Positions 11,423-59,213 of a stretch of 64,000 bases of DNA are shown here, piece after piece (positions within the stretch are counted from its first letter, which is position 1; each line of letters begins with the position of its first letter). Under the pieces are notes generated by a model that did no database searches, had not been told where the DNA came from, and was given only the letters and a program-made list of their open reading frames with translations. This stretch comes from Squalus acanthias (taxonomy: Eukaryota). The position numbers and the translations under genes are program-made. Where the stretch lies: positions 144,958,001-145,022,000 of the forward strand of contig CM059431.1 of NCBI GenBank assembly GCA_030390025.1, in the 5' to 3' direction.

Positions 11423-12834
11423 CTAGCTCGGCTTTCTTTCATGTTTAACCAATCTTAGAATCAGTGTCCAGGGAGATTTCAGCACCTTCTTCAGCTCTTC
11501 TCTGAATTTCCTCTGGGTAGCTACATACAGACACGTGTTCGGACAGGAACTCAAAAGCCTCAGCATGGCTCCGGTTTCAGTGGCGATATAGGCTGGGTTC
11601 GTGAGGTCGCCGCGGTAATAATTGGGGTTTGTCAGTCTGGTAATTACAAAACTCACAGCAGCTGTCAGCCATAGCAATATAAAACTGCCCGAGATAGCAA
11701 AGAGCAAAATTATGGATTTCCTGCGGCTCTCCATCTCGGGATCACACTGATTCTCACTGCACAGACACCGGAGTCCCCTGCGGGCTCTGCTGGCCATTAA
11801 AATACGTCTGATTGTCAAACAATTAAACAAGGCCATTAAGGTAAAGGGAAGCCAAACGAGCCATATTATGTGAAACCAGAGATACGCTACCCCTGGAGGT
11901 GCGGAAAAAAAAGCTACACTTGACCGGCAGCCCCACTGCACCTTGATAATTATTTGCTGAGATTCATATGCAAACAATACGGGGATGCCCTTTAAAAAGA
12001 CCAGGAACGTGAACGCTGTTATAACCGCGGCCGCAGTTCTCTCGGTGCAATACTTTACTTTAAACTTCTGGCAGCAGATAACTACAAATCGGTCAAATGT
12101 GAAGCAGACGGTGAACCAAACAGACAAATCGAAGGTGACAGCATTCATGTATAGATTGAACTTACACACCGGAGTGTGGGACAGGAATGAAAGTGGAAAG
12201 TGATAACTGAAAATATAATACGCCATTACATTGAAGATCATGACCAGTAGATCTGCTGTTGCCATGGCCACCATGTAGATAGAGATACACTTGGAAAGGC
12301 CGCAGTTTCCTCGGGAGAGAATCACGATTGTCACCAAGTTCGCTGTAAGAAACAGAGAGGAGAGAAATAATGTTCCAGTGTCTGATTGAAATATATATGG
12401 AGATCCTTGTTGAGGGCATTTTGCTCCATTCAGTGTGATTATCAACACGGAGCAGTGTGAGAACAGGATTAGTATTGGAGCCATTACTTGGGAAACCCAC
12501 CCACACATTGTAATGAGCTGCTGCGGCGCTCACTCTGCACGGGGTGACAAGACGGTTCGGAAATCCGCTAAAATCCTTGTGTTGGAGCTACAAAGAAGAT
12601 TGTAACATCAGCGATGTTATCATATCAAGGGCAACTGGGAAAGTGCAGACACGCGGTTCACAATGTCATGCTGACACCTGTAAAACTGTTACCTTATCCA
12701 ACATGCGACATGAACAGTGAGTCAGTTAACACCGATTTACAACAAACAGGTTACAATGGCTCACCCGGGACACCGAAAGCTGCGAGTATCGGGTAGTAAA
12801 TCTCTTTTATCAGCAGAAAAGCTGGTCGCCCCAT
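11423..12834 (-). CDS. GPCR copy A: GPR139/GPR142-like class A 7TM receptor, intact, 329 aa; join(exon1 12765-12834, exon2 11423-12342)
   Basis: Exon 1 reads MGRPAFLLIKEIYYPILAAFGVP plus G, then a GTGAG donor. The acceptor is TCTTACAG|CG AAC (phase 1, 422-bp intron) and gives GVP-ANLVTIVILS. Motifs: MATADLL (TM2), TM3 Cys, TFDRF, ECL2 Cys (WGC), SFILLW (TM6), NTCLY (NPxxY variant), KFREEL helix 8. The TM1 segment resembles GPR139 ([21 protein letters not shown], from memory). Confidence 0.9.
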
Positions 12835-12966
12835 TTCCAGTGAGATTGGATGAATTCTGTAGGAGATGAAAGACTCTGACTGGCGCACGGCTGAGTCAAT
12901 AGAGGGGAAGCTATATTTATCCACACATCAATCCGCCAGGGAGTTAATCAAATTAACTCATAATTG

Positions 12967-12991
12967 GCATTAGTTACAGTCATTTAACAAA
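12967..12991 (-). promoter_or_regulatory. Conserved upstream motif TTTGTTAAATGACTGTAACTAATGC of GPCR A
   Basis: Ends 133 nt upstream of the ATG. The same motif occurs at the same spacing in B, C and D, followed by a TATA-like GATAAATAT. Confidence 0.55.
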
Positions 12992-13362
12992 TAGACTGAG
13001 GTAAGTTGTTTTTTTTTGACTGATAATTCAGATTAAGAGAAATATGTGAAATTGTTATTGTACTGTTTCAAAAACACGCACAATACAAACATTCTTTAAA
13101 AATGGAAACTGGAATCACCCAACACTGGTGCTGAGCCTATTCCAGCAGGACTGGTGGAAGCTGCTCCCCTGGCAGCTATCGCCCTAACCCTGCCCTTCAC
13201 TGACTCCTAGTGCTCCAACACCTCCAGAACAGGCGGTGAAAGAAATCCTGCAATATCTGAAACAGTCCTGCAGCATTAGAGATGACCTTGTTCCTCTGGT
13301 AATAGTAGCTCCCAAAACATACACCAGATATGACACTACTCCTCTACTACTTGTGATAACCT

Positions 13363-17440: not shown

Positions 17441-17446
17441 CAATAT

Positions 17447-23884: not shown

Positions 23885-25247
23885 TCATTTTCTAACTAAT
23901 CTCAGAATGAGTGCCCAGGGGGATTTTGCCACCTTCTTCAGCTCTTCTCTGAATTTCCTTTCGGTCGCTACGTAAATACACGGGTTTTGAAAGCAACTCA
24001 AAAACTTCAACATTGTTCCGGTTTCAGTGGCGATATATCCAGGGTCTGTGCGGTCACCTCGATAATAAGTGATGTTTGCCAGTCTGGTAGTTACAAAACT
24101 CACGGCAGTTGTCAGCCACAACAATATAAAACTGCCCGTTATAGTGAAGAGTAAAATGATGGATTTCCTTCGTTTCTCCATCTCTGGATCGCTCTGATTA
24201 TCACTTCTGTGACCCCGGAGACCCCTGCGGGCTCTGCTGGCCACAAAAATACGTCGGACTGTCAAATAATTTAACAAGGCAATTAAAGTAAAAGGAAGCC
24301 AAACGCCCCAGGCGCTGTGAAACCAGATGTAGGCAACACCTGGAGGAGAGGAAACAAAAGTCACACTGTTCCGGAAGCCCCACTGCACATTGTTAATTAT
24401 TTGCTGTGGTTCAAATGCAAACACAATGGGGATGACCCTTACAAGGATTAGGACCGTGAATGCTGTTATAACCGCGGCCGCAGTTCTCTCGGTGCAATAC
24501 TTTGCTTTAAACTTCTGGCAGCAGATAACTACAAATCGATCAAATGTGAAGGAGACGGTGAACCAAACAGACAAATCGAGGTTGACAGCAGTCATATATA
24601 GAATGCACTTACACACGGGAGTCTGGGATAGGAATGAAAGTGGAAAGCGATAATTGAAAATATGACACACTATTACATTGACGGTCATGACCAGTAGATC
24701 TGCTGTTGCCATGGCCACCATGTAGACAGAGATACACTTGAAAAGGTCGCAGTTTCCTCGGGAGAGAATCACAATTGTCAGCAAGTTCGCTGTAAGAAAG
24801 AGAGCGGAGAGAAATAATGTCCCAGTGTCTGATTGAAATACATATGGAGATCCCTGTGGAGAGCATCTTAATCCATTCAGTGTGATTATCAATAGGGAGC
24901 AGTGTGAGAACAGGATTAGCTTTGGAACCTTTGCGTGAGAAAACGACCCAGACATTTTAATGAGCTGCTGCAGCGCTCACTCTGCACGGGGGGAAAAGAC
25001 GGTCCGGAAATCCGCTGAAATCCTTGTGTTGGAGCTTCAAAGTACATTGCAACATCAGTAAAGTTATCGGATTTGTATACTGCTGAAATCTGGAAAACTC
25101 GTTACCTTATCAAACAGGCTGTATGTACATGAATACAATTAACACCGATTAACAGCAAACAGGCTTCAATGGCTCACCGGGGACACCGACGGCCGCGAGA
25201 ATCGGGTAGTAAATCTCTGTGATCAGCAGAAAAGTTGTTCGCCCCAT
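23885..25247 (-). CDS. GPCR copy B: GPR139/GPR142-like receptor, open frame, 324 aa; join(exon1 25178-25247, exon2 23885-24789); ECL2 Cys replaced by Phe
   Basis: Exon 1 reads MGRTTFLLITEIYYPILAAVGVP plus G|GTGAG; acceptor TCTTACAG|CG; 388-bp intron. Same 7TM motifs as copy A, with NPCIY in TM7. Confidence 0.85.
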
Positions 25248-25379
25248 TTTCTGTGAGAATGGATGAATTCTGTAGGAGCTGAATGACTCTGACTGGCGCA
25301 CGGCTGGTGCAATGGAAGGGAACCGATATTTATACACACATCAATCCTCCAGCGAGTAAATCAGGTTAAATCATAATTA

Positions 25380-25404
25380 GCATTAGTTACAGTCATTTAA
25401 CAAA
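25380..25404 (-). promoter_or_regulatory. Conserved upstream motif of GPCR B
   Basis: TTTGTTAAATGACTGTAACTAATGC, 133 nt upstream of the ATG. Confidence 0.55.
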
Positions 25405-25689
25405 TAGACTCAGGTAAGTTGTTTTTTTATCTGATACGTCAGCTTAAGAGAAAAATGTGAAATTATTGTTGTACAATTACAAAAAAAATGCAGATTTAAA
25501 ACATTGTCTACGTGTATGAAGTGCATTCTCCAAGGACTATTTCTGACCCTATTCCTGCAGACCTTTTGAAGGCAACTTCCAGGCAATAATTGTCATGACC
25601 CTGCCCTTGATTCATTCCTAGTGCACCAACTCCTCCAGAATCACATCGTGCAATATTGGTGATGAACCCAGCCGGCAGCATTCGAGGTG

Positions 25690-26883
25690 ACAGTTCTCCT
25701 CCTGGGCTACTGGCACTGTACACTTACGCTAGATGTGTCCGTACTCATCAGGTACTAGTACCATGCCTACACTGGAGTTGAACGTGCTGCTATGGTAATA
25801 GTAGTAGCACTACACTCACACCACTATTGACAGAGCTCCTCCGGTACTAGTGGAAACCCCCCTCATACACTATATGAGCATGTGCTCCTCCTGTCCCAGT
25901 GTTACCCCTACACTGACACTAGATGTGACCGTGCCCCTCCTGTCCCAGTGTTACCCCTACACTTACACTAGATGTGACCCTGCCCCTCATGTCCCAGTGT
26001 TACCCCTACACTTACACTAGCTGTGATCGTGTCCCTCCTATCCCAGTGTTACCCCTACACTGAGACTAGATGTGACCGTGCCCCTCCTGTCCCAGTGTTA
26101 ATCCTACACTTACAATAGATGTGATCGTGCCCATCCTGTCCCAGTGCTAGCCCTACACTTACACTAGATTTGTGCAAGCTCCTCTGGTAATAGTGGTATC
26201 AGTAAAATTACACCAGTGGTGAAAATTGTCCTCCAGTACCAGTGGTAACCCTACACTTACACTAGATGTGACTGTGCTCCTCCGGTACTAGTGGTATCCC
26301 TATATTTACATTAAGTTTGACTGTGCTCCTTCGGTACTAGTGATACCCCTACACTAAGACCAGATTTAACCGTGCTCCTCCCATACTTGTGGTCCCCGAC
26401 ACGTACGCGTGCTGCTCAAAAAGCTGTGCTGGCACTTTATGTGACCTTGCTCGTCTGGTACTTGTTGTACATACACTTATACTACAGAGGAGCATTCACT
26501 CGTGGCATGCCTACACTTACACTTACAGTGACAGTCCTCCTCCGGTGCTCGTGGAATCACTACACTAACACTAGTGTTGACCGTGTTCTACCTACACTAG
26601 TGGTAACTTACACTTTACTAATGTCAATCGTGCTGCTCCTAAACTGGTCGTAACCTACACTAACACTAGTGTTGAACATGCTCATTCTACACTAGTGCTC
26701 ACCTACACTAACACTAGCGGTGACCGTGCTCCTCCGGTACAAGTAGTACCGCTACACTTAAACTAGGTGTGACCATGATGCTCTTGTATTAGTGGTACCC
26801 CTATAATTACACTGGAAATAACAGTGCTCCTCCGATACTAGTGATACTCCTACATTTACACTAGTAGTGACCGTGCTCCTTCA
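25690..26883 (-). repeat. Short array of the 48/49-bp satellite family upstream of GPCR B
   Basis: About 6 copies of the 49-mer (25880-26170), about 4 of the 48-mer (26555-26740), plus degenerate units. Confidence 0.8.
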
Positions 26884-30921: not shown

Positions 30922-31309
30922 TTCGAAACATAGAAACATAGAAGATAGGAGCAGGAGTAGGCCTTTCGGCCCCTCGAGCCTGCTCCGCCATTCAATGAGA
31001 TCATGGCTGATCATCCAAATTCAGTACCCGGTCCCTGCCTTTTCCCCATATCACTTGATCCCTTTAGCCTTAAGAAATATATCTAACTCCTTCTTGAATA
31101 TATTTAATGAATTGGCCTCCACTGCCTTATGTGGTAGAGAATTCCACAGGTTCACCACTCTCTGGGTGAAGAAATTCCTCCTCATCTCTGTCCTAAATGG
31201 CTTACCCCTTATCTTTAGACAGTGACCCCTGGTTATGGGCTCCCCGACCATCGGGAACATCCTTCCTGCATCTAGTCTGTCTAGTCCTGTTAGAATTTTA
31301 TGAGTTTCA
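30922..31309 (-). mobile_element. 5'-truncated CR1 3' end inserted into the Gypsy RT
   Basis: GAAACATA tail repeats; ORF 31051-31341; TTGAGCCC duplicated at 30914-30921 and 31310-31317. Confidence 0.88.
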
Positions 31310-32853
31310 TTGAGCCCGCCAGGAAGATGAACATTGCCCAATGATACCGTCAGCTAGAAGGCGAGAGATCTCTGCCTCGATAAAGGAAAGGTCATCTTGG
31401 CTGAAACGTCGTGATTTAGTGGCTATGTGCTTACATCGGGGGGAAAGATTGGCAAACAAGGAGGACTCGTCGAGTGAAGCCGCCGAAAGTGCACAAAACG
31501 GTACTTTGGAAATAGTAAGCTCCGGCTTTGATCCTCCAAACTCGAAAGTGAGTCTTTCGTGTTGTTTCTGGTAATCCTGTCACAGGAGCACATCACTGCA
31601 TAGGTTTTTGAGCACCCCGAGCCGGGTAGAGAAATAAGTGCGGCCATTAAGAATAAGGTCGACAAGACAAAAGCCGGCTGAGTTAGTAGTCAGTGTCGTC
31701 AGTGCCATTGCAATTTCCCTGTCCGAGGCGTAAATACGCAGTTTTAACTTACTGACAGCCTGCTCACTGATGAAGCTGTCAGAGCTGCATGAGTCGAATA
31801 ATGCACTCAAAATGTGTCCATTTACCGAAACCTTTGTGGCTGCATGGGACAGGCTTTGGGGAAAACAGCTGTGATAGGAGATGGGGCAGTTTTATCCTTG
31901 ACAGCTGTAACATTAGTAGTGGCTCTAGGGGGAGGAGAAGCTTTATAGATGACAGCTGTAACATTAGTCGTGCCTCTTGACTGACATACTTTCGAGAAGT
32001 GGCGTCTCTTACTGCAATGATTGCAGATTGCATTACGAGCAGGACAAAATTTCCTATAATGAAATGCAACTCCACAGAAGAAACACTTACTTATAGATTG
32101 CCAAGATGCCGCTAGGGTAGGGTCGTCATCAGCTAGGATAGAATCGTCATCAGTGAGGGCTTCCACCTGAGGCTTATCGAAGGTGTCACTAAAAGTGATA
32201 GCAGCAGCCCGTGCATGTGGTAAAAGAAAGGCATCTGCATTTTTTTTTGCCCAAGTATTGAGAATATGCCTGGTCATAGGCAGCTTGTAACTCGAGGGTT
32301 TTATTCTCCAGCAGACGCTGGCATATGAAGGGAGACTCAATTCCATTAATAAAAGAATCACGAATTAACTCCTCCTGGTACTGCTCAGCTGAGACAGCAT
32401 TGAGATTACAATCTTTGCTGAGCCAGCGATGCTTTTGAAGGAATTCGTCAAGTGATACCCCGGGTTGTTGTCGAGTTGTGGCCAGTAGGTGGGGAGCAAA
32501 AATTTCGTTTGGGGCCTTAACATATAGTTGCTGTAGTATTCGCATAGCGGAGTCATAGTTTACACACTCTTCGATATAGTCAAACACATAAGGGGATACA
32601 TAACTGGCAAGTATCTCTAACTTATCAGGAACATTCTCACCACATGCCCTGAGGTAGTTGCTGAAGGTACAATACCAGTGTTTCCATACGTTAGCAGTTG
32701 TAGGTGAATTCGGGCCCAGGTCAAGACGAGCGGGTCGGAGTAGTTTCTCCATGATGGATTGATTACTATCTCTGATTCCCTTCTACAGTTTGAGTCCTAG
32801 CTGTCTGTTCCCAAAACTACTCAGAGCGTGGAGCAGGTTTCAGTTGATTAAAT

Positions 32854-33071: not shown

Positions 33072-36000
33072 GTTAGTATAGGGTCACCATCTGTAATGTT
33101 AGAGTAGGGTCACCACCTGTAATGATAAAGTACGGTTACCACCAGTAATGATAATGTAGGGTCACCACCAGTAATGATAGAGTTGGGTTTCCACCAGTAA
33201 TGTTAGAGTAGGGTCACCAGAATAATATTAGTATAGGGTCATCCCGCATTAATGTTAGTCTAGGGTCACCACCACTTATGATAGAGTAGAGTCACCACCA
33301 ATAATGGTAGTGTAGGGTCACCACTAGTAATGTTAGAGTAGGGTCACCACCAATAATGTTAATGTTGGGTCACCACCTGTAATGTTTCAGTAGGGTCACC
33401 ACCAGTAGTGTTAGTGTAGGGTCAGCACCAGTAATGATATAGCAGATTCACCACCAGTAATGTTAGGGCAGCGTCACCAGCAGTAATGTAAGAGTAGGGT
33501 AACCACATGTACTGTTAGAGTAGGATCACTTCCAGAAATATTGGAGAAAGGTCACCACCACTAATGTTAGATTCGGGACACCATCAGTCTTAGAGTAGAA
33601 TAAACACAAGTAATATTACAGCAGCGTTGCTGCCATTAACGTTTTAGTTGTGTCAACAGCAGTAAAATTAAAGTGGATTCACCCTCACTAATGTTAGTGC
33701 GGGTTACGTCTAATGATGTTAAATTAACATCAACACCAGTAATGTTAGATTAGGGTCACCACCAGTAACGATAGAATAGGGTAACCACCAGTAACGATAG
33801 TGTAGGCTCACCACCAGTAATGTTAGAGTTGGGTCAACAACATTAATGAAAGATTAGAGTCATCACCAATAATATTAGAGTAGGGTCATCATCAGTAATA
33901 TTCGAATAGAATCACAGCCAATAATGTTACAGTAGTCTCAACACCAGTAATGCTAGAAGAGGGTCAACTCGAGATATGTTAGAGTAGGGTCACCACTAGT
34001 AATGATACAGTAGAGTCACCACGAGATATGTTAGAGCAGAGTCACCACCAGTAATGTTAGAGTAGGGTCACCACGACATATGTTAGAGTAGGGTCACCAC
34101 CAGTAATGATAAAGTAGGGTCACCACCAGTAATTATAGAGTAGAGTCATCACCAGTAATATTAGAGTAGGGTCATCACTAGTAATATTCGAATAGAATCA
34201 CCGTCAATAATGTTAGAGTAGTCTCACCACCAGTAATGTTAGAGTAGAGTCACCACCAGTAATGGTAGAGTCGGGTCACCACGAGATATGTTAGAGTAGT
34301 CTCACCACCAGTAATATTAGATTAGGGTCAACACCAGTAATGGTAGAGTCGGGTCACCACGAGATATGTTAGAGTAGGGTCACCACCAGTAATGACAAAG
34401 TAGGGTCACCACCAGTAATGATAGAGTAGGGTCACCACGAGATATGTTAGTTTAGGGTCACCACCAGTAATGACAAAGTAGGGTCATCACCAGTAATATT
34501 AGAGTAGGGTCATCACTATTAATATTCGGATAGAATCACCGCCTATAATGTTGGAGTAGTCTCACCACCAGTAATGTTAGAGTAGGGTCACCACGAGATC
34601 TGTTAGAGTAGATTAACCACCAGTAATGTTAATGTAGGGTCACCACGAGATATGTTAGAGTAGAGTAACCACCAGTAATGTTAGTGTAGGGTCACCACGA
34701 GATATGTTAGAGTAGAGTCACCACCAGTAATGTTAGAGTCGGATCACCACGAGATATGTTTGAGTAGGATCACCACCAGTAATGATAAAGTATAATCACC
34801 ACCAGTAATGATAGAGTAGAGTCATCACCAGTAATATTAGAGGCTCATCACCATTAATATTAGAATAGAATCATCGTCAATAATGTTAGAGTAGAATCAC
34901 CAGCAGTAATGTTAGAGAGGGGTGAACGCCAGTAATGTTAGAATAGCCTCACCGCCAGTAATGATAGTGTAGGGTCACCACCAGTAATGTTAGAGTAGGG
35001 TCACCACCAGTAATGTTAGAGTAGGTTCATCCCCAGAAATGTTAAAATAGGATCACCACCAGTAATGATAGAGTGGGGCCAGCATCAGTAATGTTAGATT
35101 AAGGTCATCACCATTAATGTTAGAGTAGGGTCACCATCATTGATGATAGAATAGGATCACCACCAGTAATGTTAGCGTAGGGTCATCACCAAAAATATTT
35201 GAATAGGATTAACGCCACTAATGATAGGATAGGGCCAACACCTTTAATGTTAGAGTATAGTTACCATCAGTAAAGTTAGAGTGGGTCGCCGCCAAATAGT
35301 TAGATTATTATCACCACCATGTTAGAATAGGATTAACTCTATTCATTTTAGAGTGCGATCACCAGCAGTAATGTTAGACTACAGTATTCATCAGTAACGT
35401 CAGAGTATGGATACCACATGTAAATTTAGAGCAGATGCTCCACCAATAATATTGGAGTAAGGACAACACCACTAATGTTAGATTCGGGTCACCATAAGTC
35501 TTAGAGTAGAATAAACACAATTAATATTACAGTAGCTTTGCCGACATTAACGTTTTAGTAGTGGCAGCAGCAGTAAAATTAGAGTTGTTTCACCATCACT
35601 AATATTAGTGCGGGGTCACGACTATTGATGTTAAATTAACATGAACACCAGTAATGTTAGAGTCGGGTCGCCACAAGTAATGTTAGATTAGTGTCACCGC
35701 CATTAATGTTAGAGTACGGTCACCACCAGTAACGATAGAGTAGGCTCACCACCAGTAATGTTAGAGTAGGGTCACCACCAGTAATGATAGAGTAGGGTCA
35801 CCACCAGTAATGATAGAGTAGGGTCATCACAGGTAAAATTAGAGTAGGGTCATCACCAGTAATATTAGAGTACGGTCATCACCAGTACTGTTAGAGTAGG
35901 GTCACCACCAGTAATGATAGAGTAGGGTCATCATAGGTTATATTCGAGCAGGGTCATCAACAGTAATGATAGAGTAGGGTCATCGCCAGTAATGTTAGAG

Positions 36001-38375
36001 TCGGGTCATCACCAGTAATATTAGAGAAGGGTCAAAACCAATAATGTTAGAGTCGGGTCCTCACCAGTAAATTTAGAGTAGGGTCACCACCAGAAATGTT
36101 AGAGTAGGGTCACCACCAGTAATGATAAAGTAGGGTCATCAGCAGTAATGTTATTGTTGGGTCACCACCAGTAATGTTAGAGTAGGGTCACCACCAGTAA
36201 TGTTAGAGTAGGGTCACCACCAGTAATGTTAGAGTAGCATCACCATCAGTAATTTTAGAGTAGAGGCACCACCAGTAATGATAGAGAAGGGTCTTCAACA
36301 GTAATATTAGAGTAGCGTCATCACCAGTAATATTAGAATAGAATCACCGCCAATAATGTTAGAGTAGAGACACCACCAGTAATGTTAGAGTCGGGTCATC
36401 CCCAGTAATGTAAACGTAGGGTCAGCGACAGTAATGTTACAGTAGGGTCACCACCAGTAATAATAGTGTGGGTTCACAACCAGTAATCTTAGAGTAGGGT
36501 CACCACCAATAAGGTTAGTGTAGGGTCACCACTAGTAATGTTGGAGTAGGGTCACCACCATTAATGTTTGAGTAGGGTCACCAAAAGTAATGATAGAGTA
36601 GGCTCGCCAGCAGTAATGTTAGAGTAGGATGACCACCAGTGATGATATAGTAGAGTCATCACCAGAAATGTTACTGTAGGGTCACCAATAGTAATGTTAG
36701 TATAGGGTCACCACTAATAATGTTAGATTAGGGTCACCAGCTGTAATGTTAGTGTAGGGTCAACACAATTATGTTAGTGCAGGGACACTACCAGTAATGT
36801 TGAAGTAGGGTCACCACCAGTAATGTTAGTGTAGGGTCAGCACCAGTAATGGTAGTGTCGAGTCACCACCAGTAATGTTAGGGTAGGGTCACCAACAGTA
36901 GTGTTAGATTAGGGTCACCACCAGTAAAGTTAGAGTAGGGTCATCACCAGAATGTTAGGATCGACTCACCACCAGTAATGATAGAGTAGGGCCACCATCA
37001 GTAATGTTAGATTCAGGTCATCACCATTAATGTTCGAGTAGGATCACCGCCATTAATATTAGTGTACTATCCCCAACTTAATGTTAGTGTAGGGTCAACA
37101 CCAATAATATTTGAATAGGATTACCGCCAGTAATGATAGGATAGGGCTAACACCATTAATGTTAGCGTATAGTTACCATCAGTAAAGTTAGAGTGGGTCG
37201 CCGCCAAATTGTTAGATTATTATCACCACCATGTTAGAATAGGATTAACACTATAAATTTTACAGTGCGATCACCAGCAGTAATGTTAGAGTACAGTACT
37301 CATCAGTAACATCAGAGTATGGAGACCACATGCAATGTTAGATTAGATGCACCACCAATAATATTGGAGTAATGTCACCACCACTAATGTTAGATTCGGG
37401 TCACCATCAGTCTAAGAGTAGAATAAACACAAGTAATATTACAGTACGATTGCTGCCATTAACGTGTTAGTAGTGTCAACATCAGTAAAATTAGAATAGA
37501 TTCACCATCACTAATGTTAGTGCGGGTCACGACTATTGATGTTAAATTAACATCAACACCAGAAATGTTAGAATAGAACCATCGCCAGTAATGTTAAAGT
37601 AGATTCACCACAGTAATGTTAGAGTAGGGTCTACACCAGAAATGTTACAGCAGGGTCACCCCCAGTTATGATAGTGTAAGTTCACCACCAGTAATGATAG
37701 AGTAGAGTCACCACCAGTAATGTTAGAGCTGGGTCTTCACCAGTAATGCTAGAGTAGGTTCACCCACCTGTAATGATAGAGTAGGGTCACCACCAGTAAT
37801 GATAGAGTTTTGTCACCACCAGTAATGTTAGAGTAGGGTCACCACTAGTAATGTTAGAGTAGTGTCACCACCAGTAAGGATAGATTGGGGCCACCATCAT
37901 TAATGATAGAGTAAGGTCATCAGCATTAATATTAGCGTAGGGTCACCACCAGTAATGTTTGAATAGGATCACCGCCAATAAATTCAGAGTAGTATCAACA
38001 CCAGTTATGTTAGTGTAGGGTCATCACCAATAATATTTGAATAGGATTACCGCCAATAATGTTACGACAGAGCCAACACAATTAATGTTAGCCTATAGCT
38101 ACCATCAGTGACGTTAAAGAGGTATCATCCATCAGTAATGTTAGAGTAGGGCATCACCAGTAATGTTCGAGTGTGGTCAGAATTTGTAATGCTAGATTAA
38201 TGTCACCACCGGTAATGTTAGAGTAGCGTCCCCACTGCTAATGTTGGAGTAGATTCACCACCAGTAATGTTAGAATAACATCACCACCATGAATGTTAGA
38301 ATATGATCATTATTGTTAGTGTTAAAGTAGGATCATCACCAGCCATGTTCGAGCTAAGTCACCACTAGTAATCAT
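33072..38375 (+). repeat. 26-bp tandem satellite array (~5.3 kb, ~200 units), consensus AGTAGGGTCACCACCAGTAATGTTAG
   Basis: Period read directly (e.g. 36181 to 36207). Ends ~400 bp upstream of the GPCR C ATG. Confidence 0.95.
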
Positions 38376-38620
38376 TACAGTACATAACAAATTTAATTTA
38401 TGCAATGAATGACTGATGTTTTCAGAGAATTAAAATGAGGTCACAAGAACTAACGCGGTGTCCGGGAGGGATGTTCCCTTCAGCGTTCAGGGGGTATGCA
38501 CAGAAAACATTCTCTCTGGGATTACTTTCCGCTCAATAATTTTAATGAATGAGTTTCATGGACTGAGCTTTACAATTTCCCCAGTGGTGGCCCGGGCGCA
38601 CTAAAGTGGAAAATCGCTCG

Positions 38621-38645
38621 TTTGTTAAGTGACTGTAACTAACGC
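38621..38645 (+). promoter_or_regulatory. Conserved upstream motif of GPCR C
   Basis: TTTGTTAAGTGACTGTAACTAACGC, 130 nt upstream of the ATG, in a flank otherwise poorly alignable to A/B/D. A TATAAAT follows at ~38691. Confidence 0.55.
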
Positions 38646-38774
38646 CACTTATTGTGTCACCTTATTTCCTCACCGGGGCAATGATTTTTGTATAAATTGG
38701 GAGCATTTAGGGATCTCAGATAAACTCCAGTCGGAACCGTAAAGCGGGACAGAATTCACACATTCTTCAAAAAA

Positions 38775-40458
38775 ATGATACGGCCAATAATTCTACAGAT
38801 AAGGGACATTTACTACCATATGCTCGCAGCCTTCGGTGTTCCCGGTAAGTCAATGTATCCTGCTGTCTAATAGTTGTTGACTATCTCAGTGTTAATGTAT
38901 CAGATTCCGAGAATGTCCTCATTGCAGAATCATTGATCCACCGGGATCAGTCGGTGAATATCAGTGGGAATCTTGCCACACCGCGCGGCCGCTGAGGCGC
39001 TGTTCTGGTCGCTAGATCGTGGGCACCGGGCGCTCAACTGTCTTCCCTATACTGTGGGAGGGCAAGGCGGATTCCCCGGCCCCTCCTACAGTACATAGAT
39101 CACTGAAGACGGTGTTGCTCATTGCCCATAGTAATCATCTGATTCGTACCTTTGTCCTCTGTCTATTTTAAGTTGATAATTCCTGGCACTTCGCCACCTC
39201 CACCCAAGACTGGACTTTGAAAGGTAATTTGAGAAATAATTGTTGCTCGGGGAGCTGCTCCCCTCCTCTCGGCAGCGTTTCGAATTCAATTGAACTGTTT
39301 TCTCTCAGTTGAATGTTTTATTTGAATTATATCTTTCCATGAATTGCCGTGGAATTATATTTAATACTTGACTGAAGTTTGCTGGAAGGACGGCGGTTTT
39401 CAATCCCTCGGTATTGAATTATCAATGATTACATTTCTTTAAATAAAGTGTCTTTATCCGCGCTTATATTAATGTTAAAAAATCTATGCGCATAACGCTG
39501 AATAGGGACAGTAACGAACATTTCCCCACAATAAGCTGTGAGACGTATCCGACTGCCTCCGTTACTGACCTCTTCCACCTCTTTCTCACAGCGAACCTAC
39601 TGACAATCCTGATTCTCTCCAGAGGAAACTGCGGCCTTTCCAAATGTATCTCTGTCTGCATGGTGGCCATGGCAACAGCAGATCTACTGGTAATGATCAT
39701 CAATATATTAGTGAACCGCATTATCAGTCATCACTTTCCACATTCCTTCCTGTCCTACACTTCCGTCTGTAAAAGCATTATATACATGCAATGTGTCACC
39801 CTGTATGTGTCGGTGTGTTTTACAGTCTCGTTCACATTTGACCGATTTGTAGCTATATGTTTTGAGAAGTTTAAAACAAAGTATTGCACAGTGAGAACGG
39901 TCTCTCCTGATCTGTTTACAGAGCCTCCCTTTTTGGTTTGCATATGAAACTGAGAGAATAATTAACAATGTTCACTGGGGTTGCCGCGCCAGAGTGGAGT
40001 TTTTTTCATCGCCTGCAGGTGCAGCATACTCCTGGTTGGAAAGTATTTTCATTGCTTGGCTTGCTTTTGCTTTGATATTACTATTTAATTGTTTGACAAT
40101 CAGACGCATTTTAGTGGCCAGTAGAGCCTGCAGGGGACTCCGGGGTCACAGCACTGAGAATCAGAGCGATCCAGAGATGGGGAACCGAAGGAAATGCATT
40201 ATTTTACTGTTCAGTGTATCGGGCAGTTTTATATTGTTGTTGCTAACAGCTATCGTTAGTTTTTTAACTACCAGACTGACAAACACCGCGCAATATCGAG
40301 GTGATTATGCAGCTCCTGCCTATATTGCCACTGAAACCGGATATATGCTCATGTATTTGAGTTCCTGTACAAACACATGTATTTATGCAGCTACCCAAAG
40401 TAAATTCAGGGAAGAGCTGAAGAATGTGGTGAAATGGCCTTGCACATTTTTTGGTTAA
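38775..40458 (+). pseudogene. GPCR copy C: divergent GPR139/GPR142-like paralogue, frameshifted; exon1 38775-38844, exon2 from 39592
   Basis: Exon 1 reads MIRPIILQIRDIYYHMLAAFGVP plus G|GTAAGT; acceptor TCTCACAG|CG. A net 23-nt deletion relative to copy D at ~39896-39906 (start of TM4) shifts the frame. The remainder (ECL2 to TM7) is in the frame of ORF 39994-40458. Confidence 0.85.
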
Positions 40459-45130: not shown

Positions 45131-45179
45131 CCTTTGTTCCCTATTTCCCGTTGTGTCCTCTCCGAGCTCATTTTGACCA

Positions 45180-49489: not shown

Positions 49490-50326
49490 CGGGTCACCTC
49501 TTGTGTAAGTGTCGTATATCACCAGTATTGGATGAGCGCGGTCACACCTCGAGTAAATGTATTGGAGCGGGTAATACCGGAGGAGCATTGTCACTTCTCA
49601 TGTAAGTGTAGGTGCCACGTTTACAGGAGGAGCTCGGCAACTTCTAGAATAGGTGTAGGGGCACCACTAGTGCAGGAGCAGCTCGGCAATCTGTCGTGTC
49701 AGTGTAGGGGTACCACTAGTACAGGAGGAGCTCGGCAATCTCCAGTATAGGTGTAGGGGCACCACTAGTACAGGAGGTGCTCGGCAAATACTCGTGTCAG
49801 TGTAGGGGCAACGCTAGTACAGGAGGGGCTCGTTCACCTCCAGTGTAAATGTAGGGGCACCACTAATACAGAAGGAGCACGGCAATCTCTACTGTAAGTG
49901 TAGATACCACTAGTACAGGAGGAGCACGGCAATCTCTACTGTAAGTGTAGAAACCACTAGTACAGGAGGAGCACGGCAATCTCTACTGTAAGTGTAGATA
50001 CCACTAGTACAGGAGGAGCACGGCAATCTCTACTGTAAGTGTAGATACCACTAGTACAGGAGGAGCACGGCAACCTCTACTGTAAATTTGGGGGTACCAC
50101 CAGTACCGGAGGGCCTCGGCCACCTCCAGTAAAAGTGTAGGATACCACCAGTACAGGAGCAGCTCGGTCACCTCCAGTGTAAGTGCAGGGGCACCACTAG
50201 TACAGAAGGAGCACGGCAATCTCTCGTGTAAGTGTAGCGGTACCACGAGTAACGGAGGAACTCAGTCACCTGCAGTGTAAGTGTAGGGTAACACCAGCAC
50301 AGGAGGACACGGTCACCTTTAATGTA
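49490..50326 (+). repeat. 47-49-bp satellite array (GTAAGTGTAG..TACCACTAGTACAGGAGGAGCACGGCAATCTCTACT)
   Basis: Period 47 at 49877/49924. The same family resumes at ~52870 after the Penelope and L2 insertions. Confidence 0.85.
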
Positions 50327-51687: not shown

Positions 51688-51699
51688 CCTTTAATGTAG

Positions 51700-52868: not shown

Positions 52869-53154
52869 TAAATGTAAGGCTACCACAAGTACCGTAGATT
52901 CACCATAATCGCTGGTGTAATTGTAGGGAACCAGGAGCACAGGACGAGCTCGTTAACCACTAGTATAAGTGTAGGGGTAACACTGGTATCGGAGAGGCAG
53001 GTACACTTCTAGTGTATGGGTAGGGTCCCACAGGTACTGAAGGAGCAAGGTCACTACTAGTGTAAATGTAGGAGTATCACTTGTACCGAAGCAGCACTGT
53101 TAATTCCAGTGTAATTGAAGTGGTACCACTAATTCAAGAGCATCATGATCACAC

Positions 53155-54760
53155 CTAGTTTAAGTGTAGCCGTACTACTTGTACCGGAGGAGCACGGTCA
53201 CCGCTAGTGTAAGTGTAGGTTACCACTAGTGTAGGAGGAGCATGGTCAACATTAGTGTTAGTGCAGATTAACACTAGTGTAGGAGGAGCATGGTCAACAT
53301 TAGTGTTAGTGCAGATTACCACTAGTGTAGGAGGAGCACGGTCAGCACCAGTGTTAATGTAGATAACCACTAGTGTAGGAGGAGCACGGTCAACACTAGT
53401 GTAAGTGTAGGTCACCACTAGTGTAGGAGGAGCATGGTCAACATTAGTGTTAGTGTAGATTACCACTAGTGTAGGAGGAGCACGGTCAACACTAGTGCAA
53501 GTGTAGGTTACCACTAGTGTAGTAGGAGCACGGTCAACACTAGTGTAAGTGTTAGTTACCACTAGTGTAGGAGTAGCACGATCAACACTAGTGTTAGTGT
53601 AGGTTAGCGCCAGTGCAGGTGGAGCACGGTCAACACTAGTGTAAGTGCAGGTTACCACTAGTGTAGTAGGAGCCCGGTCAACATTAGTGTTAGTGTAGGT
53701 CACCACTAGTGTAGGAGTAGCAAGGTCAACACTAGTGTAAGTGTAGGTTACCACTAGTGTAGGATGAGCAAAGTCAACACTAGTGTGAGTGTATATTACC
53801 ACTAGTGTAGGTGGAGCACGGTCAACACTAGTGTTAGTGTAGGTTACCACTAGTGTAGGATGAGCATGGTCAACATTAGTGTTAGTGTTAATTACCACTA
53901 GTGTAGGAGGAGCACGGTCAACACTAGTGTTAATGTAAATTACCACTAGTGTAGGAGGAGCACGATCAACACTAGTGTAAGTGTAGGTTACCACTAGTGT
54001 AGGAGGAGCACGGTCAACACTAGTGTAAGTGTAGGTTACCACTAGTGTAGGAGGAGCACGGACAACACTAGTGTAAGTGTAGGTTACCACTAGTGTAGGA
54101 GGAGCACGGTCAACACGAGTGTAATTGTAGGTTACCATTAGTGTAGGAGGAGCACGGTCAACACTAGTGTTAGTGTAGCTTACCACTAGTGTAGGAGGAG
54201 CACGGTCAACACTAGTGTAAGTGTAGGTTACCACTAGTGTAGGAGGAGCACGATCAACATTAATCTTAGTGCAGGTTACCACTAGTGTAAGAGGAGCCCG
54301 GTCAGCACTAGTGTTAGTGCAGGTTACCAGTAGTGTAGTAGAAGCACGGTCAACACTAGTGTAAGTGTAGGTTACCATTAGTGTCGGAGGAGCACGGTCA
54401 ACACTAGTGTAAGTGCAGGTTACCACTAGTGTAGGAGGAGCACGGTCAACACTAGTGTAAGTGTAGGTTACCACTAGTGTAGGAGGAGCACGGACAACAC
54501 TTGTGTAAGTGTAGGTTACCACTCGTGTCGGAGGAGCACGGTCAACACTAGTGTAAGTGTAGGTTACCACTAGTGTAGGAGGAGCACGGACAAAACTAGT
54601 GTAAGTGTAGGTTACCACTAGTGTCGGAGGAGCACGGTCAACACGAGTGTAATTGTAGGTTACCATTAGTGTAGTAGGAGCACGGTCAACACTAGTGTTA
54701 GTGTAGTGATTCCACGAGCACCAGAGGAGGACGATCACTGTAAGTGTAAGTGTAGGCATG
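53155..54760 (+). repeat. 48-bp tandem array (~32 units), GTGTAGGAGGAGCACGGTCAACACTAGTGTAAGTGTAGGTTACCACTA
   Basis: Period 48; produces the 16-aa repeat ORF on the minus strand. Confidence 0.95.
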
Positions 54761-55064
54761 CAACTAGTGAAAGCTCATCTGTAGCATAAGTGTTTGTATA
54801 ACAAGTACCAGAGGAGCAAGGTCACATAAAGTGCAAGCATAGATTTTTGAGCAGCCCGTTCACAACAAGTGGACGTTTCGGGGACCTCAATTACGGGAGG
54901 AGCCCAGTCAAACTTAATGTAAATGTATGGGTACCAATAGAACCGGAGTAGCACAGTCACCTTTAGTGTAAGTGTAGGTGTCTCACTAGTACCGGAGGGC
55001 AGTTTTCAACAATGGTGTAATTTTAGTGATACCAATATTACCAGAGGAGCTTGCACAAATCGAG

Positions 55065-57150
55065 TGTAAGTGTAGGGGTAGCAGTGGGACAGGAGGGGCT
55101 CGGTCACATCTAGTGCCAGTGTAGGGGTAGCAGTGGGACAGGAGCGGTACGGTTACATCTAGTGTCAGTGTAGGGATAACACTGGGACAGGAGGGTCACG
55201 GTCACATCTAGTATCAGTGTAGGGATAACACTGGGACAGGAGGGTCACGGTCACATCTAGTGTCAGTGTAGGGGTAATACTGGGACAGGAGAGACACGGT
55301 CACATCTAGTGTCAATGTAGGGGTAACACTGGGACAGGAGGGGCACGGTCACATCTAGTGTCAATGTAGGGGTAACACTGGGACAGGAGGGTCACGGTCA
55401 CATCTAGTGTCAATGTAGGGGTAACACTGGGACAGGAGGGGCACCGTCACATCTTCTGTAAGTTTAGGGGTATCAGTGGGACAGAAGGGGCACGGTCACA
55501 TCTTGTGTAAATGTATGGGTAACACTGGGACAGGAGGGGCACGGTCACATCTAGTGCCAGTGTAGGGATAACACTTGGACAGGAGGGACACAGTCATATC
55601 TAGTATAAGTGTAGGGTTAACACTGGGACGGGAGGGGCACGGTCACATCTAGTGTAAGTGTAGGGTTAACACTGGGTCAGGAGGGGCACGGTCACATCTA
55701 GTGTCAGTGTAGGGTAACACTGGGACAGGAGGGGCACGGTCACATCTAGTGTAAGTGTAGGGGTAACACTGGACAGGAGGGGCACGGTCACATCTAGTGT
55801 CAGTGTAGGGGTAACACTGGGACAGGAGGGACACGGTCACATCTAGTGTCAGTGTAGGGGTAACACTGGGACAGGAGGGGCACGGTCACATCTAGTGTCA
55901 GTGTAGGTTTAACACTGGGACAGGAGGGGCACGGTCACATCTAGTGTCAGTGTAGGTGTGACACTGGGACAGGAGTGGCACGGTCACATCTAGTGTCAGT
56001 GTAGGGGTAACACCGAGACAGGAGGGGCACGGTCACATCTAGTGTAAGTTTAGGGGTAACACTGGGACAGGAGGGACACGGTCACATCTAGTGTCACTGT
56101 AGGGGTGGAACTGGGACAGGAGGGGCACGGTCACAGCTAGTGTCAATGTAGGGATAACACTGAGACAGGAGGGACACGGTCACATCTAGTGTCAGTGTAG
56201 GGGTAACACTGGGAAAGGAGGGACATGGTCACATCTATTTTCAGTGTAGGTGTAACACTGGGACAGGAGGGACACGGTCACATCTAGTGTCAGTGTAGCG
56301 GTAACACGGGGACTATAGGGGCACAGTCACATCTAGTGTAAGTGCAGGGGTAACACTGCTAGAGGAGGGGCACGGTCACATCTAGTGTCAGTGTAGGTGT
56401 AACACTGGGACAGGAGGGGCACGGTCACATCTAGTGTCAGTGTAGCGGTAACACGGGGACTGTAGGGGCACAGTCACATCTAGTGTAAGTGTAGGGGTAA
56501 CACTGGGACAGGAGGGGGACGGTCACATCTAGTGTCAGTGTAGGGGTAACACTGGGACAGGAGGGACACGGTCACATCTAGTGTCAGTGTAGGGGTAACA
56601 CTGGGACAGGAGGGACACGGTCACATCTAGTGTCAGTGTAGGTGTAACACTGGGACAGGAGGGACACGGTCACATCTAGTGTAAGTGTAGGGGTAACACT
56701 GGGACAGGAGGGACACGGTCACATCTAGTGTCAGTGTAGGGGTGACACTGGGACAGGAGGGACACGGTCACATCTATTTTCAGTGTAGGTGTAACACTGA
56801 GACAGGAGGGACACGGTCACATCTAGTGTCAGTGTAGGGGTAACACTGGGACAGGAGGGACACGGTCACATCAAGTGTCAGTGTAGGGGTGACACTGGGA
56901 CAGGAGGGACACGGTCACATATAGTGTCAGTGTAGGTGTAACACTGGGACAGGAGGGACACGGTCACATCCAGTGTCAGTGTAGGGGTGACACTGGGACA
57001 GGAGGGACACGGTCACATATAGTGTCAGTGTAGGGTTAACACTGGGACAGGAGGGACACGGTCACAATTAGTGTCAGTGTAGGGGTAACACTGGGACAGG
57101 AGGGGCACGGTCACATCTAATGTAAGTTTAGGGGTATCACTGGGACAGGC
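55065..57150 (+). repeat. 49-bp tandem array (~42 units), CAGTGTAGGGGTAACACTGGGACAGGAGGG(G/A)CACGGTCACATCTAGTGT
   Basis: Period 49 (55801 to 55850). Ends ~700 bp upstream of the GPCR D ATG. Confidence 0.95.
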
Positions 57151-57693
57151 GGAGAACATGCTCATCTAGTGTAGGAGCAGATATTCCACTAGTATCGGAG
57201 GCGCACTATCAATAGCAGTGTTAGTGTAGTGCTACCACTATTACCATAGCAGCACATTCAACTCCAGTGTATTCATTGTACTAGTGCCTGAGGAGTTCGG
57301 ACACATCTAGCGTAACTGTAATGTGCCATTAGTACAGGAGGAAAACTGTCCCTCTAACATAAATGTAGGGTACCACTAGTAAAGGAGGAGCACTGTCACC
57401 TCTTAAACTGCCAGACTGGGTTCATCACCAGTATTGCAGGATGCGATTCACTACCTGTTCTGCAGGAGTTGTTGCACTAGGAATGAATCAAAGGCAGGGT
57501 CATGATAATTTTTGTCTGGGGAGCTGCCTTCACCAGGCCTGTAGTAATAGGGTCAGCACCAGCACTGGGAGATTACACTTCATACACGTAGACACTGTTT
57601 AAAATCTGCACATTTTTGAAACTCTCCAATAACAATTTCACAATATTTCTCTTAATCTGACGTATCAGATAAAAAACAACTTACCTGAGTCCA

Positions 57694-57718
57694 TGTGTTC
57701 AATGACTGTAACTAATGC
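57694..57718 (+). promoter_or_regulatory. Conserved upstream motif of GPCR D
   Basis: TGTGTTCAATGACTGTAACTAATGC, 133 nt upstream of the ATG. Confidence 0.5.
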
Positions 57719-57850
57719 TAATTATGATTTAACCTGATTGACTCGCTGGAGGATTGTTGTGTGGATAAATATAGGTTCCCTTCCATTGCCTCAGCCGTGC
57801 GCCAGTCAGAGTCCTTTAGCTCCGACAGAATTCATCCATTCTCACTGAAA

Positions 57851-59213
57851 ATGGGGCGACCAACTATTCTGCTGTCCAAAGAGATTTACTACCCGATTCT
57901 CGCGGCCGTCGGTGTCCCTGGTGAGCCATTGTAACCTGTTTTTTTGTTAATCGGGGTTAATTGTATTCATGTACATACAGCCTGTTTTAATAAGGTATTG
58001 AGTTTTCAAAGGTCAACATTACACTTAATCGGATAGCCTTACTGATGTTACCATGTTGTTTGAAGCTCCAACACAAGGATTTTAGCGGATTTCTGGACCG
58101 TCTTGATCCCCCTGCAGAGTGAGCGCTGCAAAAGCTTATTAAAATGTGTGGATGGGTTTCCCAGGTAATGGCTTCAATACTAATCCTCTTCTCACAATGC
58201 TCCGTGCAGATAATCACACTGAATGGAATGAAATGATCTTAACAGGTATCTCCATATATATTTCAATCAGACATTGGAACATTATGTCTCTCCTCTCTCT
58301 TCTTACAGCGAACTTGCTGACAATTGTGATTCTCTCCCGAAGAAACTGCGGCTTTTCCAAGTGTATCTCTGTCTACATGGTGGCCATGGCAACAGCAGAT
58401 CTACTGGTCTTGATCTTCAATGTAATAGTGTATCATATTTTCAATTATCACTTTCCACTTTCATTCCTGTACCACACTCCCGTGTGTAAGTTCATTCAAT
58501 ACATGACTGCTGTCAACCTCGATTTTTCTGTTTGGTTCACCGTCTCCTTCACATTTGACCGATTTGTAGTTATCTGCTGCCAGAAGTTTAAAGCAAAGTA
58601 TTGCAACGAGAGAACTGCGGCCGCGGTTATAACAGCGTTCACGGTCCTAATCTTTTTAAGGGGCATCCCCATTTTGTTTGCATTTGAAGCTGAACAAATA
58701 ATTACCAAGGAGCAGTGGGGCTGCCGGAACAGTGTGACTTTTGTTTCCTCACCTCCAGGTGTTGCCTACATCTGGTTTCACAGCGCCTGGGGCGTTTGGC
58801 TTCCTTTTACTGTAATTGCCTTTTTAAATTATTTGACAGTCAGACGTATTTTAGTGGCCAGCAGAGCCCGCAGGGGACTCCGGGGTCACAGAAGTGAAAA
58901 TCTGAGAGATACAGAGATGGAGAACCGAAGGAAATCCATCATTTTACTGTTCACTATATCGGGCAGTTTTATATTGTTGTGGATGACAGCTGCCGTGAGT
59001 TTTGTAACTACCAGACTGACAAACACCACCTATTATCGAGGTGACCGCACAGACCCTGGATGTATCGCCATTGAAACTTGAACAATGTTGAAGTTTTTGA
59101 GTTGCTTTCAAAACTCCTGCATTTATGTAGCGACCCAGAGGAAATTCAGAGAAGAGCTGAAGAAGGTGGTTAAATCCCCCTGGACACTCATTCTGAGATT
59201 AGTTAGAAAATGA
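57851..59213 (+). pseudogene. GPCR copy D: close paralogue of copy B with a premature stop before TM7; exon1 57851-57920, exon2 58309-59213
   Basis: Exon 1 reads MGRPTILLSKEIYYPILAAVGVP plus G|GTGAG; acceptor TCTTACAG|CG. TGA at 59079-59081 stands where A, B and C have GGA (ETG). The frame continues cleanly to the ancestral stop at 59211-59213. Exon 2 is 905 nt, identical in length to B. Confidence 0.85.

What the first reader, a model, noticed from the sequence alone, without database searches (positions are those of the whole stretch)
11423..59213. Birth-and-death cluster of GPR139/GPR142-like receptors with almost no N-terminus: candidate lineage-expanded chemosensory receptor family
Seen: four paralogous two-exon GPCRs in 48 kb, in both orientations, with identical exon-1 length (70 nt) and intron phase. 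Each has only ~10 residues before TM1 and no N-glycosylation sequon there. Variation includes TM3, ECL2 and TM5, and two of the four are clearly pseudogenised. Established: mammalian GPR139 and GPR142 are single-copy receptors activated by aromatic amino acids (L-Trp, L-Phe); tandem clusters with rapid gain and loss are typical of OR/TAAR/V1R/T2R sensory families; cartilaginous fishes have few classical ORs. Inference: this may be part of an expanded, uncharacterised amino-acid or peptide sensing receptor family rather than the GPR139 orthologue.
Basis: partly seen in the sequence, partly recalled or inferred. Interest (0 to 1): 0.85.

Follow-up and report, generated by a model that had tools for sequence, protein, structure and literature searches.

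The report
Thousand-gene shark orphan receptor family
The four genes belong to a family of over 2,300 receptor gene copies in this shark-type genome, auto-labelled GPR139 in databases but distinct from it, and they likely form a large overlooked set of chemical sensors, possibly the smell receptors that sharks were thought to lack.

Summary
Confirmed, and much larger than reported. The window holds four two-exon class A GPCR genes: two have open frames, two are broken. One TM3 motif occurs 2,313 times in this genome (control 0) and the exon-1 splice motif 1,584 times (control 3). Of 130 sampled loci, 73 have an intact main exon, so roughly 1,000 genes are likely intact. Members occur in many sharks and rays.

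They are not GPR139 or GPR142. Each of those is single-copy elsewhere in the genome, and a tree test rejects grouping the family with them (AU p=0.0006). The sister is an apparently single-copy amphibian/sturgeon gene. The arginine that binds Trp/Phe in GPR139 is lost (2 of 71 keep it), pocket positions are hypervariable and signalling motifs are fixed. Promoters across subfamilies share forkhead-like, homeodomain-like, EBF-like and TATA elements, resembling olfactory-receptor promoters. Contigs of probable RNA runs of relatives skip the intron; the tissue is unknown.

Best reading: a chemosensory repertoire, probably olfactory (0.55). Rivals: immune sensing (NLR genes are interleaved), non-nasal sensing, passive amplification. 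Ten literature searches found no description. This scan noted the family earlier elsewhere in this genome (e1-7939187).

The parts
12765..12834 (-). Gene A coding exon 1 (70 nt, N-terminus and start of TM1)
   Evidence: intron skipped by contigs of relatives
11423..12342 (-). Gene A exon 2; spliced product 329 aa, open frame
12916..12993 (-). Gene A promoter block: forkhead-like 12993-12986, conserved 10-mer 12982-12973, homeodomain-like plus EBF-like 12943-12933, TATA-like 12921-12916 (factor names are resemblances)
25178..25247 (-). Gene B coding exon 1
23885..24789 (-). Gene B exon 2; 324 aa open frame, ECL2 Cys replaced by Phe
25329..25406 (-). Gene B promoter block, same architecture
25866..26880 (.). 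48/49-bp minisatellite upstream of B
33072..38372 (.). 26-bp minisatellite (about 205 copies) upstream of C
38620..38696 (+). Gene C promoter block (10-mer 38630-38639, EBF-like 38667-38678, TATA 38691-38696)
38775..38844 (+). Pseudogene C coding exon 1
39592..40458 (+). Pseudogene C exon 2, 23-nt deletion near 39901 (frameshift)
52939..57173 (.). 49-bp minisatellite (about 88 copies) upstream of D
57694..57769 (+). Gene D promoter block
57851..57920 (+). Pseudogene D coding exon 1
58309..59213 (+). Pseudogene D exon 2, premature TGA at 59079-59081

Best explanation
The four genes are members of a shark-and-ray family of class A GPCRs with over 2,300 loci in this genome, descended from a relative of GPR139 rather than from GPR139 itself, and they likely work as a diversified repertoire of receptors for water-borne chemicals, probably in olfactory sensory neurons. 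Shown: copy number, clustering on several large contigs, birth and death, separation from GPR139/142, fixed signalling motifs, variable pocket positions, and a shared promoter layout. Inferred: an ancestral receptor with a fixed basic residue at 6.51 lost that anchor and was amplified by segmental duplication of a unit carrying promoter, both exons and often a minisatellite. Each paralog would bind a different set of polar ligands (peptides or small metabolites), would couple to a common G protein through the invariant intracellular face, and would be switched on by a shared forkhead/homeodomain/EBF/TATA promoter, perhaps one or a few genes per cell.
For: Counts: 2,313 TM3-motif hits, control 0; 1,584 exon-1 hits, control 3; 73 of 130 sampled loci have an intact exon 2. 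Members in many sharks and rays. Pocket entropy 2.45 vs 1.09 bits at other TM positions, p 8e-10, while D2.50, N7.49 and Y7.53 are invariant in 71 of 71. Mean dN/dS 0.53-0.60; a class above 1 is supported in subfamily A (2dL 20.2, highest of 25 null simulations 6.6) and weakly in C (9.9); rates are higher in the outer half (0.72 vs 0.46). A forkhead-like motif recurs in 12 of 13 non-redundant promoters (score 65 vs at most 39 in shuffles). An element about 21 nt before the TATA box matches the EBF palindrome at 6.0 of 8 vs 4.55 +/- 0.23 shuffled (11 of 18 promoters analysed); its matrix scores the mouse OMP Ebf probe (p 0.004) and a Greek-island composite probe (0 of 2,000 shuffles). Lhx2 plus Ebf sites drive mouse OR expression (PMC5608512, passages). 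Sharks have large olfactory organs but very small known receptor repertoires (PMC10116579, passages). Contigs of probable RNA runs of two relatives skip the intron; 127 contigs laid from one run.
Against: No tissue data at all. A strict EBF palindrome was found in 0 of 48 promoters of the first set; the looser patterns were defined after seeing the sequences. A canonical TAATTR plus EBF-like pair occurs in only 5 of 65 promoters (27 of 65 with a relaxed pattern), and its spacer is 2 nt against 1 nt in the mouse probe, by my reading. EBF and forkhead factors also act in B cells and many neurons (own knowledge). The 50 most specific genes of a catshark brain-plus-olfactory library held no GPCR (PMC11979771, passage), though a family split over many genes could be missed that way. 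NLR genes are interleaved with the clusters. The positive class is mild (about 1.5), not significant in the C26 subfamily (2dL 5.6), includes intracellular sites, and the test is home-made and ignores gene conversion. Paralog pockets vary in any receptor family.
Confidence: 0.55

Rival explanations
1. The family is an innate-immune or barrier-cell sensor repertoire, like formyl-peptide receptors, that detects microbial or damage peptides on leukocytes or mucosal sentinel cells.
For: NACHT-domain genes lie among the GPCRs on C7 (138.9-146.8 and 157.7-159.6 Mb), on C29 and on many of the same small contigs. The wider superfamily binds aromatic-ended peptides (PMC8557429, passages). EBF and forkhead factors act in B cells (own knowledge).
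Against: ETS, C/EBP, RUNX and IRF motifs (recalled consensus) were not enriched in 48 promoters. No GPR139-named gene appears in the four supplements of a shark immune single-cell study, although its gene labels may differ. Mammalian OR clusters also mix with immune genes (own knowledge).
Confidence: 0.18
2. The family is sensory but not nasal: receptors of skin or gill solitary chemosensory cells, taste buds, gut endocrine cells or sensory ganglia, analogous to the rodent MRGPR expansion.
For: The pocket and promoter evidence does not name an organ. GPR142 is described as a glucose-metabolism receptor (PMC8807744, passage). The sister gene was found only in amphibians and sturgeon.
Against: Adjacent homeodomain-like and EBF-like sites are best known from olfactory receptor control. 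A repertoire near 1,000 genes is typical of smell, less so of these tissues (own knowledge).
Confidence: 0.15
3. The copy number is mostly passive: a small functional family sits in duplication-prone, repeat-rich regions and is amplified along with NLRs and minisatellites, with many copies on their way to decay.
For: 44% of sampled loci are broken. Near-identical recent copies exist (99.9% on C7). Mean dN/dS is high at 0.53-0.60. NLRs share the regions. Several clusters reach contig ends.
Against: About half of codons are under purifying selection. Subfamilies only 41-60% identical are shared by sharks and rays. Promoter motifs survive where flanking DNA no longer aligns. Change is concentrated at the pocket.
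Confidence: 0.12

Closest known systems
GPR139 / GPR142 (human GPR139, PDB 7VUG)
   Same: Best solved-structure match by profile (E 2.8e-17, next 8.8e-12). Same phase-1 intron just before N1.50 (seen in this genome's GPR139, and its GPR142-like gene). W6.48 kept; P7.50 mostly absent.
   Different: About 30% identity. Both genes exist separately as single copies. Family keeps C3.25 (68 of 71) and an ECL2 Cys (65 of 71), lacking in GPR139/142. It lacks P6.50 (0 of 71) and R6.51 (2 of 71). Grouping rejected.
Unnamed amphibian/sturgeon gene, auto-named 'probable GPR139' (e.g. XP_069092602.1)
   Same: Sister group at 100/100 support; short N-terminus, C3.25, TFDR motif.
   Different: About one cluster per species in frogs, salamanders, a caecilian and sturgeon; no amniote or teleost among 25 hits. 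Keeps a basic 6.51 (Lys) and P6.50.
Vertebrate olfactory receptor families (OR, TAAR, V1R/ORA, V2R/OlfC)
   Same: Works like them in genome organisation: large clusters, birth and death, variable pocket, short N-terminus; promoter resembles Lhx2/Ebf logic.
   Different: Different lineage: only Pfam 7tm_1 matched at E<=0.01, no olfactory-receptor or V1R model. Coding region has an intron. Olfactory expression not shown.
Nematode srw and Aplysia srw-like chemoreceptors
   Same: Chemoreceptor expansions out of peptide-receptor-like class A GPCRs (PMC3963977, passages). Srw/Srx-labelled clusters are near neighbours by language-model features.
   Different: Protostome expansions; no srw Pfam hit for the window proteins; their direct relation to this family was not tested in a tree.
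Automatic RefSeq/UniRef models 'probable G-protein coupled receptor 139' of sharks and rays
   Same: These are the same family: 1,938 and 2,101 clusters matched in two searches; all named rows among the 120 shown each time are elasmobranch. Models have the same spliced 324-329 aa form.
   Different: They carry only a borrowed name; no paper describing them was found.

Membership tests
Class A (rhodopsin-like) GPCR | 7tm_1 domain and seven-helix fold | tested here: met
   Pfam E 1e-18 to 1e-20; model pLDDT 75 with seven TM helices plus helix 8; Foldseek top hits are class A peptide receptors
Class A (rhodopsin-like) GPCR | Activation motifs D2.50, D/ERY, NPxxY | tested here: met
   D2.50, N7.49, Y7.53 in 71 of 71; DRF in all four window genes; P7.50 is mostly Thr, and GPR139 also lacks it
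GPR139/GPR142 orthology group | One clade with GPR139 and GPR142 | tested here: not met
   Careful tree separates them; AU p=0.0006; separate orthologues exist. GPR139 and GPR142 were each represented only by this genome's copy
GPR139/GPR142 orthology group | Arg6.51, reported as specific to GPR139/142 and critical for activation | tested here: not met
   PMC8807744 passages; Arg in 2 of 71 family representatives (one search count less the coelacanth row), Arg/Lys in 9 of 9 single-copy relatives
GPR139/GPR142 orthology group | Trp/Phe site residues F3.33, H187, W6.48, N271 | tested here: not met
   Abstract of PMC5430874. Family: F 16 of 71, H 26 of 71, W 67 of 71, Asn not among the six commonest residues
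GPR139/GPR142 orthology group | Activation by L-Trp or L-Phe | not testable with these tools
   needs a cell assay
Wider GPR139-related superfamily | Nearest named relative and shared intron position | tested here: met
OR / TAAR / V1R / V2R / T2R | Sequence membership of a known chemoreceptor family | tested here: not met
   only 7tm_1 matched in Pfam at E<=0.01; best solved-structure match is GPR139
Olfactory-type receptor repertoire (functional class) | Large clustered family with birth and death | tested here: met
Olfactory-type receptor repertoire (functional class) | Diversified ligand pocket, diversifying selection | tested here: inconclusive
   pocket variability strong; selection above 1 clear in one of three subfamilies, weak in one, absent in one
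Olfactory-type receptor repertoire (functional class) | Homeodomain plus O/E (EBF) promoter sites | tested here: inconclusive
   EBF-like element at a fixed place but strict palindrome 0 of 48 and spacer differs from mouse composite
Olfactory-type receptor repertoire (functional class) | Sparse expression in olfactory sensory neurons | not testable with these tools
   runs laid have no tissue label; catshark tissue tables unreadable

The most novel reading that the evidence does not exclude
Sharks and rays have a fifth vertebrate olfactory receptor family, unrelated to OR, TAAR, V1R and V2R: a GPR139-related orphan receptor expanded to about a thousand intact genes under the same homeodomain/EBF promoter logic as mammalian odorant receptors. 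It would be their main smell repertoire and would overturn the view that sharks smell with a few dozen V2Rs.
Probability: 0.45. Interest if true: 0.96.

Novelty: new variant of a known kind. Interest (0 to 1): 0.86.

Why it matters
Cartilaginous fishes are reported to have large olfactory organs yet only a few dozen olfactory receptors (PMC10116579). A family of roughly 1,000 likely intact GPCR genes, hidden under a borrowed database name, makes that puzzle directly testable: existing tissue RNA-seq can say at once whether it is olfactory. Whatever the tissue, it is among the largest GPCR expansions I know of outside odorant receptors (own knowledge). It also defines several unnamed GPR139-related lineages in aquatic vertebrates, and shows that the label 'GPR139' in shark annotations is mostly wrong.

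Tried and rejected
Expression in this species: no RNA holder listed; no evidence either way. The catshark multi-tissue supplement was too large to read. Supplement searches for GPR139 names found nothing in PMC11372145 (4 files), PMC11806052 (1 file), PMC13188829 (8 files) and the first 12 of 24 files of PMC8455134; gene labels there may not use that name.

Rejected: GPR139 orthologue. Rejected: count mainly due to haplotype duplicates. Only 2 of 11 small-contig loci among the 30 nearest to A were 99% or more identical to another of those 30, and four single-copy relatives each appeared once. Rejected: CpG decay as the sole source of the selection signal in subfamily A. The C-subfamily signal fell from about 23 to 9.9 after trimming the C-terminus and refining parameters. 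The position of amphioxus sequences differed between the quick and careful trees, so the age of the split from GPR139/142 is open. No chimaera protein appeared among the displayed hits, but only top rows are shown. Three shared-notes look-ups by words, one by sequence and one for relatives were empty.
Full report
Observation. The window carries four paralogous two-exon GPCR genes, two on each strand. A (329 aa) and B (324 aa) have open frames. C has a 23-nt frameshifting deletion near 39901, and D has a TGA at codon 281. All four have a 70-nt coding exon 1 and a phase-1 intron of 388-747 nt. B and D lie in a 5.6-kb inverted duplicated block. The exon-2 frames of A, B and D match Pfam 7tm_1 and nothing else. 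B has lost the ECL2 cysteine and may be impaired (inference). Public gene models of other sharks have the same spliced form. Contigs from probable RNA runs of two related organisms skip the intron: 422- and 432-nt joints in X1, 426 nt in X2. X1 laid 127 contigs and had no depth in seven bins inside the intron. These runs are only guessed to be RNA and carry no tissue label.

Size of the family. The window lies at C7:144.96-145.02 Mb of a 3.7-Gb genome. Protein A's exon 2 gave 129 scored matches at 72% identity or more, out of 4,634 candidates. An exact 20-mer occurs 284 times (control 0); 98 of the first 100 listed lie on C7 between 137 and 160 Mb. A degenerate TM3 pattern occurs 2,313 times (control 0), and it caught 41 of 45 loci found independently by protein search. 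An exon-1 pattern with its splice donor occurs 1,584 times (control 3). Clusters lie on C1, C3, C6, C7, C17, C18, C21, C26, C29, C30 and many small contigs.

How many are intact. I sampled 130 loci from the listed hits of three pattern searches; this is not a random sample. Of these, 73 have one open frame spanning exon 2 (56%, interval 47-65%). In one C7 sample, 16 of 18 such loci also had an intact exon 1. About two thirds of hits lie on small contigs (184 of 277), but only 2 of 11 small-contig loci among the 30 nearest to A were 99% or more identical to another of the 30. My estimate is therefore about 1,000 intact genes, and about 600 if every locus were assembled twice. The 115 intact proteins compared are 41-100% identical; 72 remain at a 90% cut.

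Range. Two homology searches matched 1,938 and 2,101 clusters. Every named row among the 120 shown each time is a shark, skate or ray, nearly all auto-named 'probable GPR139'. The taxon of this genome is inferred from these hits. No chimaera row was displayed, which proves nothing.

Relation to GPR139. Human GPR139 is the best solved-structure match (profile E 2.8e-17), but at about 30% identity. The true GPR139 is a single locus on C18 (E 1e-161 to PDB 7VUG). A second single locus on C24, 57% identical to it, is taken as GPR142 by similarity and a recalled motif. Two more single-copy relatives exist, on C17 (62% to a coelacanth protein) and C9. All share the phase-1 intron before N1.50. In the careful 36-sequence tree, the family joins an amphibian/sturgeon gene at 100/100, then the C17 and C9 lineages; GPR139/142 stand apart. 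Forcing the family with GPR139/142 is rejected (AU p=0.0006). Family monophyly itself has only 84/81. The amphioxus position changed between trees. The sister gene gave about one cluster per species in amphibians and one in sturgeon, with no amniote or teleost among 25 hits.

Ligand pocket. Arg6.51 is reported as critical in GPR139 and as the docked contact for Trp and Phe (PMC8807744, passages). It is Arg or Lys in 9 of 9 single-copy relatives but Arg in only 2 of 71 family representatives; the position takes a dozen residues (the tally also counted the coelacanth row). F3.33 and N271, named in the abstract of PMC5430874, are not conserved either. P6.50 is absent in 71 of 71. The family keeps C3.25 (68 of 71) and an ECL2 Cys (65 of 71), which GPR139/142 lack, and has a mostly fixed Asp3.37 (59 of 71). 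The 24 standard pocket positions (numbering recalled) average 2.45 bits against 1.09 at other TM positions, while D2.50, N7.49 and Y7.53 are invariant. So amino-acid sensing by the GPR139 mechanism is not supported; many different ligands and one signalling output is the natural inference. The AlphaFold model (pLDDT 75) is an ordinary class A fold; Foldseek does not single out GPR139.

Selection. A home-made codon mixture model on intact copies gave mean dN/dS 0.60, 0.60 and 0.53 in three subfamilies (26, 17, 15 sequences; three truncated loci left out), with about half or more of codons at 0.5 or below. A class above 1 improved the fit by 2dL 20.2 in A's subfamily (highest of 25 null simulations 6.6), 9.9 in C's and 5.6 in the C26 group. 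A CpG term did not remove the signal in A. High-rate sites are enriched in the outer half (14 of 124 vs 8 of 172, p 0.04). Gene conversion was not modelled, so this is suggestive.

Promoters. Among 65 upstream regions, 13 no longer align well with each other. De novo search recovered a forkhead-like 12-mer in 12 of 13, a second 12-mer about 13 nt behind it in 11 of 13, and a motif just before the ATG, scoring 65, 61 and 52 against at most 39 in three shuffled sets; a TATA motif scored within the shuffled range. An 18-mer form of the block occurs 294 times in the genome (control 3), nearly all listed hits inside family clusters. About 21 nt before the TATA box lies an element of consensus TCCCTGGAG, often preceded by TAATTG or TGATTA. 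It matches the recalled EBF palindrome at 6.0 of 8 against 4.55 in shuffles (11 of 18 promoters; 7 dropped because my anchoring pattern missed them). Its matrix from 13 of 14 promoters scores the published mouse OMP Ebf probe (p 0.004) and the Sfaktiria Lhx2/Ebf composite probe (0 of 2,000 shuffles). The combined pattern has 250 genome hits (control 5), but it was drawn from the same promoters. Against: a strict palindrome was found in 0 of 48 promoters, the canonical homeodomain pairing in 5 of 65, and the spacer is one base longer than in the mouse probe. No binding was tested.

What it likely does. Lhx2 and Ebf sites govern mouse odorant receptor expression (PMC5608512, passages and supplementary files 2 and 7). 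Sharks are reported to have very few OR, TAAR and ORA genes and 34 V2Rs in catshark despite well-developed olfactory organs (PMC10116579, passages). GPR139/142 are sister to protostome receptors for aromatic-ended peptides (PMC8557429 and PMC8514136, passages), and nematode and Aplysia srw-type chemoreceptors arose from peptide-receptor-like ancestors (PMC3963977, passages). Together these favour a chemosensory repertoire, probably olfactory (0.55). The immune rival (0.18) rests on NACHT genes interleaved with the clusters (95 of 481 candidates scored). Non-nasal sensing (0.15) and passive amplification (0.12) remain.

Novelty. Ten searches (listings and abstract starts) found no paper on the family. 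A GPR139 review had no passage on cartilaginous fishes or paralogs (PMC12208981, term search), and the catshark sensory-genome paper does not mention GPR139 in its main text (PMC11979771, term search). Its supplement, half of the whale-shark supplements, preprint supplements and subscription papers were not seen and could bear on both novelty and tissue. The proteins are in public databases under a borrowed name. Verdict: real, large, apparently undescribed; function inferred, not shown. Interest 0.86.

Noticed in passing
window 25866-26880, 33072-38372, 52939-57173; many loci L012-L180: Subfamily-specific minisatellites (26-bp and 48/49-bp, apparently related units) sit a few hundred bases upstream of exon 1; other subfamilies carry different arrays in the intron.
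   Followed up: partly
window 49601-50307: A 49-bp array of the B/D type with no promoter, exon 1 or exon 2 remnant beside it.
   Followed up: partly
G000 C7 138.9-146.8 and 157.7-159.6 Mb, C29, many small contigs: NACHT-domain (NLR) genes are interleaved with the receptor clusters.
   Followed up: partly
L062 (C17), L063 (C9), P0218 group: At least three unnamed low-copy GPR139-related lineages exist in aquatic vertebrates, all auto-named GPR139, all with a basic residue at 6.51.
   Followed up: partly
L078/L079, G000 C30 about 2.4-2.5 Mb: An early-branching, slower subfamily: 69-88% identical across sharks and rays, unlike the fast-turnover clusters.
   Followed up: partly
window about 13000-13007 (A); similar in B and D: A perfect splice-donor-like 8-mer on the opposite strand just upstream of the promoter block in 20 of 48 promoters, hinting at a divergent transcript.
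   Followed up: no
window 12770-12891: One low-depth contig of run X2 ends 30 nt downstream of the start of A's TATA-like box, where a transcript start would be expected; a weak hint only.
   Followed up: no
window about 28500-32800, minus strand: Broken frames resembling an LTR retrotransposon (reverse transcriptase, integrase), plus many LINE-like fragments across the window; names from recall, no family search.
   Followed up: no
promoters of most subfamilies: A conserved TCTCACAGA-like motif directly before the start codon.
   Followed up: no
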